A DNA stretch of 64,000 nt from an uncultured Acidobacteriota bacterium (GTDB taxonomy: Bacteria > Acidobacteriota > Thermoanaerobaculia > Gp7-AA8). The notes under the pieces were generated by a model, which made no database searches, had not been told where the DNA came from, and was given only the letters and a program-made list of their open reading frames with translations. Positions 42,266-46,376 of this stretch are shown here, piece by piece (positions within the stretch are counted from its first letter, which is position 1; every line of letters starts with the position of its first letter). The position numbers and the translations under genes were made by a program. The stretch covers positions 1,216,001 through 1,280,000 of the forward strand of contig CAWGHO010000002.1 in assembly GCA_963822445.1 (NCBI GenBank). The letters are read 5' to 3'.

Positions 42266-42487
42266 ATGACCGATTACCAAATCAACATCTTCCACGGCGA
42301 GGAGGATGGCGGTTATATCGCCGACATTCCTGATCTCGACGCTTGCTCTGCGTTCGGTGCAACTCCGGACCAGGCTCTCGCCGAGGTAGAACGCGACAAA
42401 TCGGCCTGGCTCGCAGCGGCGCGCGACGGCGGCAAGCCAATCCCGGAACCTCGATACAGGCCCGTTATTTACCAGGTCCGAAGCTGA
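42266..42487 (+). CDS. hicB: HicB-family antitoxin (short form), no adjacent HicA
   Basis: YQINIF.GEEDGGYIADIPDLDACSAFGATPDQALAE...W...ARDGGKPIPEP. Confidence 0.85.
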   Translation: MTDYQINIFHGEEDGGYIADIPDLDACSAFGATPDQALAEVERDKSAWLAAARDGGKPIPEPRYRPVIYQVRS

Positions 42488-43461
42488 TGCACAGTTCCCC
42501 CATCCCCGAATCCCACCCCTGCTTCGAGTACATCCGCCTCACGGACTCCGTGCCCGCCTCGCAACGCGACTGCATCGACATCGCGCTGCTGGACATGAAT
42601 CACTCCTGGCCGAATGTCGGGCACCACGCGCTGGTGCACGCGGTTCAGAAGACGGCCCAGGAGCTGCGCGAGGAGCTGGGGAAGATCAACGCGAAGGTTC
42701 GCGTGCTGTCGTACGACGTGCGCCGGCAGAACCTGATCCCGGAATCGCCGAACGGCCGCTTTCAGATTTACATCGGCACGGGCGGGCCGGGGCATCTCGA
42801 CCCGCGCCTGAACGACGGCATCAGCGAGACCAGTCAGGGCGTCGACGAAACGGATGCGTGGGAGAAGCCGCTGTTCCGCCTGTTCGACGACATCCTCGCC
42901 TCACGCACCGCGGCGATGCTCGCGATCTGCCACTCGTTCGGACTGGTATGCCGCTGGTCCGAGATCGCCCGCCCTGAGTTACGCCCCGAGAAGAGCTCGG
43001 GGATGCCGCTCAATCGCCTGTCACGCGAAGCACTGAATCATCCCTGGTTCGAGCAGTTCGCGCGCGAGCTTCCCGATCATCAGCATTTCCGCGTGGTGGA
43101 CAATCGTCTGTTCGATCTGATGCTGGAAAGCCCCGGCAAGAGCGCGCCGATCGCGTTCGAAGCCGCGGGCAGCACGGCGTTGACGATGGTGGAACTGGCC
43201 CGCGACCCGGAAGGCACGATGCCCCGGTTTCTCGGCGTGAATCATCATCCGGAGATCATCGACCGCGATCACATCATGCAGGTCCTCGACGCGAAACGCG
43301 CCCAGGGCGAGGTGAGCGATCAGTGGTACGAGGAACGCGCGGTGACGATGCGCGATCTGTTTCACGGGGAGCCGGAACGCCAGAGCCGCCTGACGTCGCA
43401 GTTCACGCTGCTGGCGCCTTTGCGCTTCCATCTCGAACGCGTGATTCGCGAGCGTTCCTAG
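42487..43461 (+). CDS. Class I glutamine amidotransferase-like protein
   Basis: IALLDMN, GTGGPG, AICHSFG (Cys nucleophile), GVNHHPE; TGATG coupling to hicB. Confidence 0.75.
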   Translation: MHSSPIPESHPCFEYIRLTDSVPASQRDCIDIALLDMNHSWPNVGHHALVHAVQKTAQELREELGKINAKVRVLSYDVRRQNLIPESPNGRFQIYIGTGGPGHLDPRLNDGISETSQGVDETDAWEKPLFRLFDDILASRTAAMLAICHSFGLVCRWSEIARPELRPEKSSGMPLNRLSREALNHPWFEQFARELPDHQHFRVVDNRLFDLMLESPGKSAPIAFEAAGSTALTMVELARDPEGTMPRFLGVNHHPEIIDRDHIMQVLDAKRAQGEVSDQWYEERAVTMRDLFHGEPERQSRLTSQFTLLAPLRFHLERVIRERS

Positions 43462-43602
43462 TTGCAACAGGGAACGACCGGGAGGCCTCCGGCGGGCCGG
43501 CACGGCCGGCAGCGCTGATGTTTGCGTAAACGCGATTCGCGCTAGATACCGTGAGCACGGCAGAAGGGACAACCAGCGCTGCCGGCCCGTGGCCGGCCCG
43601 CC
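43461..43602. repeat. Left part of the palindromic repeat interrupted by IS110
   Basis: Aligns with the reverse complement of 8652-8823 up to ...gccggcccgCC. Confidence 0.9.
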
Positions 43603-43611
43603 TATAGCTTG

Positions 43612-43860
43612 TCCGGCCGTCTCTCCGCTTCTCCCTCAGCCCTCAGAGAAGTACCCGTTGGGTGGCAATCGGGAGAATCGGGTTCAGGCGGCGCGATACT
43701 GAGAAGAAGGGTTCGTCCCGCTACGAATTCCGCCCGTGTTCGGATCGACGAATCCCTCCGGACTTTCGAGCGGGACGAAGTGCTTTGGCCCGAAACGCAT
43801 TCTCAGATGCTGTCGGAGCACGACTCGACTATAGGCCTTGCGCGCGGCCAAAGCCAACCC
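43612..43860 (+). ncRNA. Predicted IS110 bridge RNA (5' stem-loop, target-binding loop, donor-binding loop); ends approximate
   Basis: Stem ttcgtcccgct/agcgggacgaa (43712-43779) encloses ccgcccg and cctccgg, which match the target. Stem gctttggcc/ggccaaagc (43782-43854) encloses ctcagatg and ctatagg, which match the IS ends. Confidence 0.85.
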
Positions 43861-43874
43861 GAAGGGAGGGTGTG

Positions 43875-45119
43875 ATGAGCGAGTTCGAGTTTGGGGCGTT
43901 GGTGGGACTGGATTGGGGTGACACATCGCACGAGGTGGCTCTTTGGGACGAGCAGCAGCAGACGTGCACGAACGAGCGCATCGAGCACACGCCTGCGGCT
44001 CTGCGCGCATGGATCGAAGCGCTGCAGGCGCGCTTCGGCGGGGCACCGATCGCCGTGGCCATCGAGCAGTCCCGCGGCGCGGTCTTCGACGCGCTCAGCG
44101 GCTATCCGTTCGTCACGTTGTATCCGATCAACCCACGCAGTGCAGCCCGGTATCGTGAGGCGTTTCATCCGAGCCTTTCGAAAGACGATCCGACCGACGC
44201 GGCGTCCTTGCTCGACCTGCTCCGTAAGCACCGCAACGAGCTGCGCCCGTTCATCGCCGACGACGCTTCTACGCGGCTGCTGCGGCTTCTGACCGAGGAT
44301 CGGCGGGAGCTCGTCGATCAGAGGACGCAACACGTCCAACGCATGACCGATCGGCTCAAGACGTACTACCCGCAGGCGCTCCGGTGGGCCGGCGCGTTGA
44401 TTACGGCCCAGGCCTGTGACTTCCTCGAACGCTGGCCGACGCTCGAGGCCATCCAAAGGGCTCGGCCGTCCGCGATACGGAGGTTCTATGCGGGTCATCA
44501 TCACGCGGCCGCGTGGATCGACCAGAGGCTCGCCGAGATCCGTTCAGAGGTCGCGTTCCACGACGACCAGGTCACCACTGACGCTGCCGTGCTGCTGATC
44601 GGAAGCGAGGTTGCGCAGATCCGGGCCCTCAACACGAGCATCGCCACGTACGACCAGAAGATCTCGGCGGCGTTCGCCGCCCACCAGGACGCGTCGATCT
44701 TCGCGAGCTTCCCTGGCGCCGGCCAACAGCTCGCGCCGCGGCTCGCCGCCGCCTTCGGGACCGATCGCAAGCGCTTCGGCAGCGCCGTCAACGTCGCCAC
44801 CCGAAGCGGCATCGCCCCGGTTCTCCGCCGGAGCGGCAAAACGGCGGTCGTGCACATGCGCTGGGCCTGTCCGAAGTTCCTGCGTCAGACGTTCCATGAG
44901 TACGCCCGCGTGTCGATCGGTCAGTCCGAATGGGCTCGAGCCTTCTACAAGCAGCAACGCGCGCGCGGACACAGCCACCACGAGGCTATCCGCACGCTCG
45001 CTTACCGCTGGATCCGCGTCCTTTACGCCTGCTGGAACAATCGCACCGTCTACGACGAAGCTCTCTATCTGCGGCAGCTCGCCACCCGAGGCTCAACCCT
45101 CGCCACAGCTGCTCCCTGA
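43875..45119 (+). CDS. IS110-family DEDD transposase/recombinase (414 aa)
   Basis: GGAGG RBS; VGLDWG (D), AIEQS (E), SKDDPTDA (D,D); C-terminal FPGAG and SGIAPVLRRSG. Confidence 0.95.
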   Translation: MSEFEFGALVGLDWGDTSHEVALWDEQQQTCTNERIEHTPAALRAWIEALQARFGGAPIAVAIEQSRGAVFDALSGYPFVTLYPINPRSAARYREAFHPSLSKDDPTDAASLLDLLRKHRNELRPFIADDASTRLLRLLTEDRRELVDQRTQHVQRMTDRLKTYYPQALRWAGALITAQACDFLERWPTLEAIQRARPSAIRRFYAGHHHAAAWIDQRLAEIRSEVAFHDDQVTTDAAVLLIGSEVAQIRALNTSIATYDQKISAAFAAHQDASIFASFPGAGQQLAPRLAAAFGTDRKRFGSAVNVATRSGIAPVLRRSGKTAVVHMRWACPKFLRQTFHEYARVSIGQSEWARAFYKQQRARGHSHHEAIRTLAYRWIRVLYACWNNRTVYDEALYLRQLATRGSTLATAAP

Positions 45120-45120
45120 C

Positions 45121-45126
45121 TTGACA
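45121..45126 (+). promoter_or_regulatory. -35 hexamer of the predicted circle-junction promoter
   Basis: TTGACA lies 17 bp before the junction with TATAGC (43603-43608) in the excised circle. Confidence 0.8.
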
Positions 45127-45143
45127 GGAAGGCTCAGATGTCC

Positions 45144-45172
45144 GGAGGCCTCCCGTCGGTCCCTGTCGCAAC
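45144..45172. repeat. Right part of the interrupted palindromic repeat
   Basis: ggaggcctcccgtcggtccctgtcgcaac is the inverted partner of 43461-43490. Confidence 0.9.
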
Positions 45173-45209
45173 CAGGAACAATCAGCAACGACACGCGTCA
45201 ATTGGACAT

Positions 45210-46376
45210 ATGCGCAGATGGACACTGGCACTTCTCCTTCTCGTCGCTTGCGCCTCCGGCACGACCCAGCCGGCGACGACCACCGCTGACATCGTCGGAA
45301 CGCGTGTCCACATCCCTGTCTCCGTCAATGGCGCCGCGCCGGCGACGTTCATCCTCGATACCGGTGCGGTCAAATCGCCCGTCGATCCGAAGTACGCCGA
45401 AACGTTGGGCATCAAGTCGCGCGGGAGCGTGACGGCGCAGGGCGCCGGCGGATCGGTGAAAGTCGGTCTCGCTTCTGACCTGCGGATGTCCTTCGCCGGC
45501 CTCAACGCCAAGGTCGAAAAGAGCCCGATGACGCCTCTTGGTGCGATCAGCCTTCGCATCGGCCAGCCCGTCCATGGCGTTCTCGGCTACGACGTCATGC
45601 GCAAGTACGTCACCGAGATCGACTACGCGAACGAGCGCGTCACCTTCCATCCGCCGTCCTTCAGGCCGCCGGCCGAGGCCGTGCGTCTGCCGATCAGGTT
45701 CGATGGACATCTGCCGCTCGTCGACGCGCGCATCACCCTGCCCGATGGCCGCGAATTACATCCGCGGCTTCTCATCGATACCGGCGCGGGCAACGGGTTG
45801 ATCCTCACACGCGCTTACGTTGCGAAGTCGAAGATCGAGATCGAGCCGACCCTCGAGATCACCGGCGGTCTTGGGGTGGGGGGCGAGACCCGCACCCGCC
45901 TCGGGCGCATCGGCAGCCTTCAACTGGCCGGGTTCACGTTCGACAACCCGCTCGCTTCCATGTCGCGCGACACACGCGGCGTGCTCGCGAGCTCAGACTT
46001 CGATGGTCTGATCGGTGGTCCGATCCTGCGGCGATTCACGCTCTACGTCGACTACCCGCGCAAAGAATTCGCGTTCCTTCCCAATGCCGCGTTCCATACG
46101 CCGATCGAAGCCGACGGCAGCGGACTCGGACTCGCGTCGCGCGACCACAAGTTCGACACGGTGGTGATCCGCGAAGTGCTTTCGAACACGCCTGCGTCCG
46201 AGGCGGATCTGCGCGTGGGAGATGAGGTCGTTGCGGTCGATGGCAAAGCGGCCGTTCCGAAGGACCTCGACGAGATCCGCGAAGCATTCAGGGAGCACGG
46301 TCGGAGCTTCAGCCTCACCATCCGCCGCGACGGATCGCAATCGACGGTGACGCTCGTCACCCGCCGGCTCATCTGA
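45210..46376 (+). CDS. Retropepsin-like aspartyl protease (two domains) with C-terminal PDZ, probable lipoprotein
   Basis: LLLVAC lipobox-like; FILDTGA and LLIDTGA; GVLG and GLIG; PDZ-like TPASEADLRVGDEVVAVDG. Confidence 0.88.
   Translation: MRRWTLALLLLVACASGTTQPATTTADIVGTRVHIPVSVNGAAPATFILDTGAVKSPVDPKYAETLGIKSRGSVTAQGAGGSVKVGLASDLRMSFAGLNAKVEKSPMTPLGAISLRIGQPVHGVLGYDVMRKYVTEIDYANERVTFHPPSFRPPAEAVRLPIRFDGHLPLVDARITLPDGRELHPRLLIDTGAGNGLILTRAYVAKSKIEIEPTLEITGGLGVGGETRTRLGRIGSLQLAGFTFDNPLASMSRDTRGVLASSDFDGLIGGPILRRFTLYVDYPRKEFAFLPNAAFHTPIEADGSGLGLASRDHKFDTVVIREVLSNTPASEADLRVGDEVVAVDGKAAVPKDLDEIREAFREHGRSFSLTIRRDGSQSTVTLVTRRLI

What the first reader, a model, noticed from the sequence alone, without database searches (positions are those of the whole stretch)
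45117..45143. Promoter assembled only on excision: TTGACA-N17-TATAGC across the circle junction
Seen: a perfect -35 TTGACA (45121-45126) one base after the transposase stop, exactly 17 bp to the end of the core, and TATAGC as the first bases of the left end (43603-43608). In the integrated state the -35 faces GC-rich repeat DNA. Known: junction promoters drive RNA and transposase expression in IS110 circles. Inference: expression of the guide RNA and recombinase is switched on by circularisation, which independently confirms the element boundaries.
Basis: partly seen in the sequence, partly recalled or inferred. Interest (0 to 1): 0.7.

Follow-up and report, generated by a model that had tools for sequence, protein, structure and literature searches.

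The report
Split promoter of an IS110 element
The two promoter halves are really there, at opposite ends of a nine-copy IS110-family insertion sequence, and would join into one promoter when the element forms a circle, which is the ordinary, already described way this family switches on its guide RNA and recombinase.

Summary
TTGACA lies at 45121-45126, one base after the transposase stop and 17 bp from the element's last base (45143). TATAGC forms the first six bases of the left end (43603-43608).

The boundaries rest on three independent lines:
- Nine full copies in the genome share identical ends.
- Many uninterrupted target sites exist.
- A bridge-RNA-like structure in the left end has 3'-side guides that are exact complements of CC+GGAGG (target) and CC+TATAG (circle junction).

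The -35 is conserved in position. A 5-of-6 or better match to TTGACA lies 12-13 nt before the conserved CTCAG in 17 of 20 related lineages. Only 1 such match occurs at the 32 other offsets tested. TATAG starts the inferred left end in 18 of 20 lineages.

In all nine integrated copies neither half has a partner in the flank.

Caveats:
- The -10 has C where T is usual at its last position.
- No reads, RNA or circles could be examined, so activity is inferred.

The mechanism is already published for IS621, its orthologues and ISPpu10. This is a new member of a known kind, of low interest.

The parts
43603..45143 (+). IS110-family insertion sequence, 1541 bp counted with one copy of the CC core
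   Evidence: Nine full copies have the same ends, three of them 100% identical. Empty sites exist.
43601..43602 (.). Left copy of the CC core (target side)
   Evidence: CC precedes the left end in 9 of 9 copies, and the element itself ends in CC. The RTG and RDG both end in GG (sequence).
45142..45143 (.). Right copy of the CC core, the last two bases of the element as counted here
45121..45126 (+). -35 hexamer TTGACA in the right end
   Evidence: It is identical in 9 of 9 copies. The position is conserved in 17 of 20 lineages.
45127..45143 (+). 17-bp spacer. It holds the left-donor sequence CTCAGATGT (45133-45141) and the core.
   Evidence: The LDG at 43802-43809 repeats CTCAGATG.
43603..43608 (+). 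-10-like hexamer TATAGC. Its first five bases are also the right-donor sequence read by the RDG.
   Evidence: TATAG starts the inferred left end in 18 of 20 lineages.
43615..43857 (+). Predicted bridge RNA. The transcription start near 43615-43616 is expected from the -10 position and is not mapped.
   Evidence: Fold. Alignment of 22 left ends with 11 of 17 consensus pairs showing compensatory changes.
43709..43778 (+). Target-binding stem-loop. The LTG is at 43730-43738 (CCGCCCGUG) and the RTG at 43755-43761 (CCUCCGG).
   Evidence: The RTG is the exact reverse complement of CC+GGAGG, 7 of 7. The LTG matches GCCCG next to the core in this copy, and CCGCCCG in 3 of 9 copies. The guide layout follows.
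43780..43855 (+). Donor-binding stem-loop. The LDG is at 43802-43809 (CUCAGAUG) and the RDG at 43829-43835 (CUAUAGG).
   Evidence: The LDG equals right-end bases 45133-45140. The RDG is the exact reverse complement of CC+TATAG, which only the circle junction provides.
43861..43869 (+). Shine-Dalgarno-like GAAGGGAGG before the transposase start
43875..45119 (+). Transposase/recombinase gene, 414 aa
   Evidence: Pfam PF01548 at 1.6e-28 and PF02371 at 1.3e-11. NF033542 at 143.2 bits against a cut-off of 140. The frame is intact in 9 of 9 copies.
43461..43602 (.). Left part of the REP-like palindromic repeat that was the target
   Evidence: This stretch recurs without the IS at many places. The flanks of all copies belong to the same repeat family.
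45144..45172 (.). Right arm of the same repeat, the right target starting with GGAGGCC

Best explanation
Window 43603-45143 is an active IS110-family (IS110-group) insertion sequence. It sits at a CC core inside a REP-like palindromic repeat.

Its right end carries a consensus -35 (TTGACA). Its left end starts with a -10-like TATAGC. When the recombinase and bridge RNA excise the element as a circle with a single CC between the ends, the two halves lie 17 bp apart and form a sigma-70-type junction promoter.

Transcription would then start near 43615. It would run through the roughly 240-nt bridge RNA (5' stem-loop, target-binding loop, donor-binding loop) into the recombinase gene 20 nt further on. 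This raises the expression of both just when a new target must be found. After insertion the halves are separated again by the whole element and face G+C-rich repeat DNA.

Shown here: the anatomy, the boundaries, the guide matches, the conservation of both halves, and the absence of partners in the integrated state.

Inferred: the promoter activity, the start site, circle formation and the size of the switch.
For: 1. Sequence and boundaries. There are 9 of 9 copies with identical ends and 37 empty sites at 2 or fewer mismatches.

2. The element is active or recently active. Three copies are 100% identical over 1541 bp, and 9 of 9 have an intact 414-aa frame.

3. Family..

4. Bridge RNA. The fold shows two stem-loops with internal loops. 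11 of 17 consensus pairs have compensatory changes in 22 left ends. RTG CCUCCGG is the complement of CC+GGAGG. RDG CUAUAGG is the complement of CC+TATAG. LDG CUCAGAUG equals right-end bases 45133-45140 (read, layout). The RDG needs CC directly before TATAG. That fixes one core copy in the junction and hence the 17-bp spacing.

5. Conservation of the -35.
   - Of 20 lineages, 17 have a 5-of-6 or better match to TTGACA starting 12 or 13 nt before the conserved CTCAG. Only 1 such match occurs at the 32 other offsets.
   - By locus the figure is 35 of 45.
   - In several lineages the stop codon lies well upstream, so the hexamer is not a by-product of the stop.

6. Left end. TATAG starts the inferred left end in 18 of 20 lineages. 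The sixth base is T in 11, G in 4, A in 2 and C in 1. Where the dinucleotides at both ends agree (11 lineages) the spacing works out by hand as 17 bp in 9 and 18 bp in 2.

7. Integrated state. The best flank -35 is 3 of 6 or less and the best flank -10 is 1 of 6 in 9 of 9 copies. No + strand promoter-like site was found inside 43300-45400.

8. The host uses this format. TTGACA-17-TAAGAT and TTGACA-17-CAATCT lie upstream of a 16S rRNA gene.

9. Literature. A junction promoter has been shown for IS621 and five orthologues and for ISPpu10 (passages).
Against: - The -10 is TATAGC. It has C at the position where T is among the best-conserved bases of sigma-70 -10 boxes (recalled knowledge). The scanner's own rule would reject it (header).
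- Only 11 of 18 lineages have T there, so that position is not strongly held.
- TATAG is also the sequence paired by the RDG. Its conservation alone cannot separate promoter use from donor recognition.
- ISPpu9, another family member, forms circles without a junction promoter, so family membership does not guarantee one.
- The left-end starts of single-copy relatives are inferred from motif and core agreement, not from empty sites.
Confidence: 0.8

Rival explanations
1. The two motifs are kept for recombination, not transcription. TATAG would be kept as the right donor read by the RDG, and TTGAC as a subterminal contact of the recombinase. The resemblance to a promoter would be incidental.
For: The RDG pairs exactly with CC+TATAG (sequence, layout). 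The sixth -10 base varies among lineages and is C here. ISPpu9 has no junction promoter.
Against: The -35 lies 8 or more nt outside the stretch matched by the LDG. It keeps both its sequence and its offset in 17 of 20 lineages. Its distance to TATAG is the promoter optimum of 17-18 bp. In IS621 a 22-bp donor without the -35 recombines once the RNA is supplied in trans, so that region is not needed for recombination there.
Confidence: 0.07
2. The junction promoter exists but is weak in this lineage. Expression would come mainly from read-through out of neighbouring genes, so circularisation would be a minor modulator and not the switch.
For: There is a C at the last -10 position in this element and in its closest relatives L013 and L015. 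IS621 is transcribed at a low level without the junction, and read-through suffices for excision. Here the upstream ORF (42343-43461) has the same orientation.
Against: The -35 is perfect and the spacing is 17 bp, as upstream of the host's own 16S rRNA gene. The REP-like hairpin lies between the upstream ORF and the left end. The nine copies sit in nine different contexts.
Confidence: 0.1
3. The TTGACA faces outward to build hybrid promoters with flanking DNA and switch on neighbouring genes.
For: Outward -35 boxes are known in other IS families (recalled). The hexamer points towards the downstream protease/PDZ gene.
Against: The right flank is fixed by the RNA guide to GGAGGCC. The best -10 at 16-18 bp is 1 of 6 in 9 of 9 copies.
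Confidence: 0.02

Closest known systems
IS621 (E. coli) and its orthologues, the IS110 group with a bridge RNA
   Same: Both have a DEDD plus Tnp-domain recombinase. Both have a left-end RNA with a target-binding and a donor-binding loop whose 3'-side guides include the complement of the 2-nt core. Both have the -35 in the right end and the -10 across or after the core in the left end, so the promoter exists only in the circle.
   Different: The protein is only distantly related, with E 3e-4 to IS621 and 1.8e-5 to ISCro4, over the C-terminal domain only. It is 414 aa against 328 aa. The core is CC, not CT. The RNA is longer, about 240 nt against 177 nt. The -10 ends in C. The core positions of the LTG and LDG read UG, not a copy of the core.
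ISPpu10 (Pseudomonas putida)
   Same: It is an IS110-family element that inserts in a repeated intergenic palindrome. Its circle has a strong hybrid promoter with the -35 from the right end and the -10 from the left end.
   Different: I did not compare sequences, because no ISPpu10 sequence was fetched. Its promoter was measured; the one here was not.
ISPpu9 (Pseudomonas putida)
   Same: It is in the IS110 family, targets REP sequences and forms circles.
   Different: ISPpu9 has an internal promoter and no junction promoter. Here no internal + strand promoter-like site was found and the split promoter is present.
Pjunc promoters of IS3, IS21, IS30 and IS1111 elements
   Same: The principle of a promoter assembled from the two ends in the circle is the same (introduction passage; titles on ISEc11 and IS492 in the reference passage).
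   Different: Those elements have different transposases and different end structures. The IS1111 group carries its RNA downstream of the gene.

Membership tests
IS110 family, IS110 group (bridge-RNA-guided) | N-terminal DEDD RuvC-like domain | tested here: met
   PF01548 at 1.6e-28, residues 10-166. The motifs GLDWG, AIEQS and KDDPTDA lie at residues 11, 62 and 103. Assigning them to the catalytic residues rests on recall.
IS110 family, IS110 group (bridge-RNA-guided) | C-terminal Tnp domain with the catalytic serine | tested here: met
   PF02371 at 1.3e-11, residues 274-359. The SG of RRSGK (S320) aligns with the SG of ISCro4. That this is the catalytic Ser is recalled, not tested.
IS110 family, IS110 group (bridge-RNA-guided) | Curated whole-protein model | tested here: met
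   NF033542 'IS110 family RNA-guided transposase' at 143.2 bits against a cut-off of 140. The margin is narrow.
IS110 family, IS110 group (bridge-RNA-guided) | No terminal inverted repeats, and insertion at a short core that appears on both sides | tested here: met
   The ends TATAGC... and ...GATGTCC are not inverted repeats. CC is found on both sides in 9 of 9 copies, and the empty sites have one CC.
IS110 family, IS110 group (bridge-RNA-guided) | RNA in the left end with two internal loops whose guides match target and donor | tested here: met
   RTG 7 of 7, RDG 7 of 7, LDG 8 of 8 and LTG 5 to 7 contiguous matches (sequence against flanks). No Rfam family matched.
IS110 family, IS110 group (bridge-RNA-guided) | Circular intermediate with RE-core-LE junction | not testable with these tools
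   Only assembled contigs were on hand. No junction occurs in the genome assembly or in 8 of 8 metagenome contigs with this right end.
Junction (Pjunc) sigma-70 promoter | -35 close to TTGACA on one end | tested here: met
   6 of 6.
Junction (Pjunc) sigma-70 promoter | 16-18 bp between the hexamers once the ends are joined | tested here: met
   17 bp with one core copy. That one copy is present follows from the RDG match to CC+TATAG.
Junction (Pjunc) sigma-70 promoter | -10 with A at position 2 and T at position 6 | tested here: not met
   TATAGC has the A at position 2 but C at position 6. 11 of 18 related lineages have T.
Junction (Pjunc) sigma-70 promoter | Neither half has a partner in the integrated state | tested here: met
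   True of 9 of 9 copies.
Junction (Pjunc) sigma-70 promoter | Measured promoter activity of the junction | not testable with these tools
   No RNA run is listed.

The most novel reading that the evidence does not exclude
The RDG still carries the A that would pair with a T at the sixth base of the left end, as in the 11 lineages with TATAGT. The element and its two closest relatives have C there.

One base change would therefore weaken both the -10 box and the RDG-donor duplex, from 8 to 7 pairs. More generally, the same five bases serve both as -10 box and as right donor. That would explain why the donor side stays fixed across phyla while the target guides change freely.
Probability: 0.25. 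Interest if true: 0.3.

Novelty: new member of a known kind. Interest (0 to 1): 0.2.

Why it matters
The finding gives a fully annotated, apparently active IS110-type element from a poorly studied soil lineage. Its closest relatives are in Thermoanaerobaculia assemblies. The annotation covers the ends, core, guides, target repeat and split promoter.

It is useful for annotating the nine copies and for anyone collecting natural bridge-RNA systems. It does not change what is known about how the family is regulated.

Tried and rejected
- **Rfam scan of 43000-45600.** It gave only one chance-level hit (E 0.87) inside the coding region. No curated family covers this RNA.
- **Sequencing runs.** No RNA holder was listed, and all holders are kept as contigs.
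- **Laying four runs.** Only short contig pieces came back. The single joint (45164 back to 43468) lies in the two arms of the flanking palindrome, not at the element ends. Nothing can be said on circles or expression.
- **Search of the assembled genome for the joined ends, with or without the core, at 3 or fewer mismatches.** There were 0 hits, as expected for a transient form.
- **Metagenome scan with the 24-nt right end.** All 8 of 8 contigs show the integrated form.
- **Earlier notes of this scan.** Nothing was found.
- **Antisense promoter-like site TTGGCT-18-TATAGT at 43857-43828.** Its -35 reaches 4 of 6 in only 3 of 22 aligned left ends, so I treat it as chance.
- **An alternative -10, TAGCTT at 19 bp.** The corresponding bases are not kept in relatives (read).
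- **Outward hybrid promoter.** Rejected.
- **Rows dropped.**
  - Of the 73 related loci, I looked at the 49 with a near-full match and DNA past the stop.
  - Four of these (L044, L053, L056, L058) showed no CTCAG-type right end within 70 nt and were left out.
  - I picked the 20 lineages by eye, as distinct right-end sequences with one locus each.

Full report
**What is in the sequence**

- The 414-aa gene ends with TGA at 45117-45119.
- C follows at 45120 and TTGACA at 45121-45126.
- Seventeen bases later, at 45143, the repeated element ends in CC.
- TATAGC occupies 43603-43608, directly after a flank that also ends in CC.

The gene runs from ATG 43875, preceded by GAAGGGAGG. My first try was one base off (corrected). 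It matches Pfam DEDD_Tnp_IS110 (1.6e-28) and Transposase_20 (1.3e-11). It also matches the NCBIfam model 'IS110 family RNA-guided transposase' at 143.2 bits against a cut-off of 140. Among solved structures only the C-terminal domain matches, distantly: ISCro4 at 1.8e-5 and IS621 at 3e-4.

**Boundaries**

The window's genome is 6.0 Mb in three contigs with 64.5% G+C. It holds nine full copies and some fragments.
- All nine start with TATAGC after ...CCCGCC and end with ...CAGATGTCC before GGAGGC.
- Three copies are identical over all 1541 bases.
- All nine keep the 414-aa frame, so the element has moved recently.
- The uninterrupted site, with the left flank directly followed by the right flank, occurs 37 times at 2 or fewer mismatches over 21 nt.

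The target lies in the arm of a REP-like palindromic repeat. That repeat comes in a short form and a form of about 130 bp. The element ends in CC and the left flank ends in CC. The insertion therefore shares a 2-nt core, as in the IS110 family.

**Guide RNA**

The 272 bases before the gene fold into three parts:
- a 5' stem-loop, 43616-43692;
- a first stem-loop with an internal loop, 43709-43778;
- a second stem-loop with an internal loop, about 43780-43855.

In an alignment of 22 left ends from relatives, 11 of 17 consensus pairs carry compensatory changes. I used the layout given in passages of PMC11208160: 5'-side guides copy the top strand, and 3'-side guides are its complement, core included. 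Read that way, the matches are as follows.

| Guide | Window position | Sequence | Match |
|---|---|---|---|
| RTG | 43755-43761 | CCUCCGG | exact complement of CC+GGAGG |
| RDG | 43829-43835 | CUAUAGG | exact complement of CC+TATAG |
| LDG | 43802-43809 | CUCAGAUG | repeats right-end bases 45133-45140 |
| LTG | 43730-43738 | CCGCCCGUG | GCCCG next to the core in this copy; CCGCCCG in the three copies whose flank reads GGCCGCCCGCC |

The RDG match requires CC directly in front of TATAG. Only the circle junction offers that. It fixes one core copy in the junction and so a spacing of exactly 17 bp. No Rfam family covers this RNA.

**Is the promoter more than a look-alike?**

*Chance.* TTGACA occurs 402 times and TATANN 1430 times in 12.0 million strand positions. 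The contiguous pattern with 17 bp between them occurs once.

*Conservation.*
- Of 73 related loci I examined 49. I dropped four that had no recognisable right end.
- 35 of the remaining 45 have a 5-of-6 or better match to TTGACA starting 11-14 nt before the conserved CTCAG of the right end.
- With one locus for each of 20 distinct right ends, 17 have such a match at offset 12 or 13. Only one such match is seen at all 32 other offsets from 7 to 40.
- The three exceptions read TTGCGG, TTGCTG and TTGGAC.
- In several lineages the stop codon lies well upstream of the hexamer. The motif is therefore not a side effect of a TGA stop.

*Left end.* TATAG starts the inferred left end in 18 of 20 lineages. 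The sixth base is T in 11, G in 4, A in 2 and C in 1, the lineage of this window. Where the dinucleotides at both ends agree (11 lineages), the spacing works out by hand from the offsets as 17 bp in nine and 18 bp in two.

*Control.* An antisense promoter-like site found by the scanner is not conserved when scored the same way.

*Host promoters.* The host itself uses the same format. TTGACA-17-TAAGAT and TTGACA-17-CAATCT lie upstream of a 16S rRNA gene.

**Integrated state**

In all nine copies the best -35 that the left flank offers at 16-18 bp is 3 of 6 or less. The best -10 that the right flank offers is 1 of 6. No other + strand promoter-like site lies between 43300 and 45400. The two halves are therefore unpartnered until the ends meet.

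**Weak points**

- The -10 has C at its last position. The scanner's rule demands T there (header), and from recalled knowledge that T is one of the two most important -10 bases.
- TATAG doubles as the sequence read by the RDG. Its conservation alone does not prove promoter use. The case rests more on the -35, which lies outside the guide-matched stretch.
- In IS621 a 22-bp donor lacking the -35 still recombines when the RNA is given in trans. This argues that the -35 region serves transcription.
- ISPpu9 shows that a family member can lack a junction promoter.
- I had no reads. The run search listed contigs only and no RNA. Laying them showed nothing at the ends. Neither the assembly nor eight metagenome contigs with the same right end hold a junction.

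**Comparison with what is known**

Passages of PMC11208160 state that excision rebuilds a promoter across the core of the joined RE-LE and that a 177-nt RNA starts from it. Passages of PMC13626964 add that low read-through expression gets the first excision going and that the junction promoter then boosts expression. Passages of PMC12288879 report a strong hybrid promoter for ISPpu10, with the -35 from the right end and the -10 from the left end. I saw these papers only as search listings and found passages. I saw no figures and no supplements.

The present element works the same way. It meets the family's defining features that could be tested. It differs in:
- its core (CC);
- the size of its protein and RNA;
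- its distant sequence;
- the C at the end of its -10;
- the core positions of the two 5'-side guides, which read UG.

**Verdict**

This is a new member of a known kind, and the regulatory principle is already in print.

Noticed in passing
window 43461-43602 and 45144-45172; the same family across G000: The target is a REP-like nested palindrome. An outer stem containing GGAGGCCTCCGG and its partner encloses an inner inverted repeat and an interior of about 90 bp. That interior appears in both orientations relative to the IS. A short form without the interior also exists. At least 37 target-bearing sites are present.
   Followed up: partly
window 43481-43501, minus strand: The left arm of the same palindrome still holds an intact second target site, one mismatch from the commonest 21-mer. 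Each repeat therefore offers two sites in opposite orientations.
   Followed up: partly
window 43730-43738 and 43810-43812: Both 5'-side guides (LTG and LDG) read UG where a copy of the CC core would be expected. Close relatives read CC, CA or CG there. The LTG fits the flank variant GGCCGCCCGCC (3 of 9 occupied sites) better than the commoner GGCCGGCCCGCC.
   Followed up: partly
L087, L089, L091, L093 (metagenome contigs): Four contigs carry the identical 24-nt right end, -35 included. It is followed by GGCAGCCGAGCTGCC, not GGAGGCC. These look like relatives retargeted to another repeat. Their left ends were not fetched.
   Followed up: no
G000 C3:469301-470841 and C1:940357-941431: One copy has an internal segment of about 168 bp (element positions 412-579) inverted. 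At another place two partial right halves lie head to head.
   Followed up: no
window 43857-43828, minus strand: An antisense promoter-like site TTGGCT-18-TATAGT overlaps the donor-binding loop. Its -10 comes from the palindromic CTATAG of the RDG. Its -35 is not conserved (3 of 22).
   Followed up: yes
window 45138-46376: The listed ORF of the aspartyl-protease/PDZ protein starts at an ATG inside the IS right end. The real start is more likely the ATG near 45211, before a signal-peptide-like stretch.
   Followed up: no
L094 1163-1191 and about 200 nt before the 16S rRNA gene: Two sites with a perfect TTGACA and 17-bp spacing lie upstream of a 16S rRNA gene. They are likely rRNA promoters of this organism.
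   Followed up: partly
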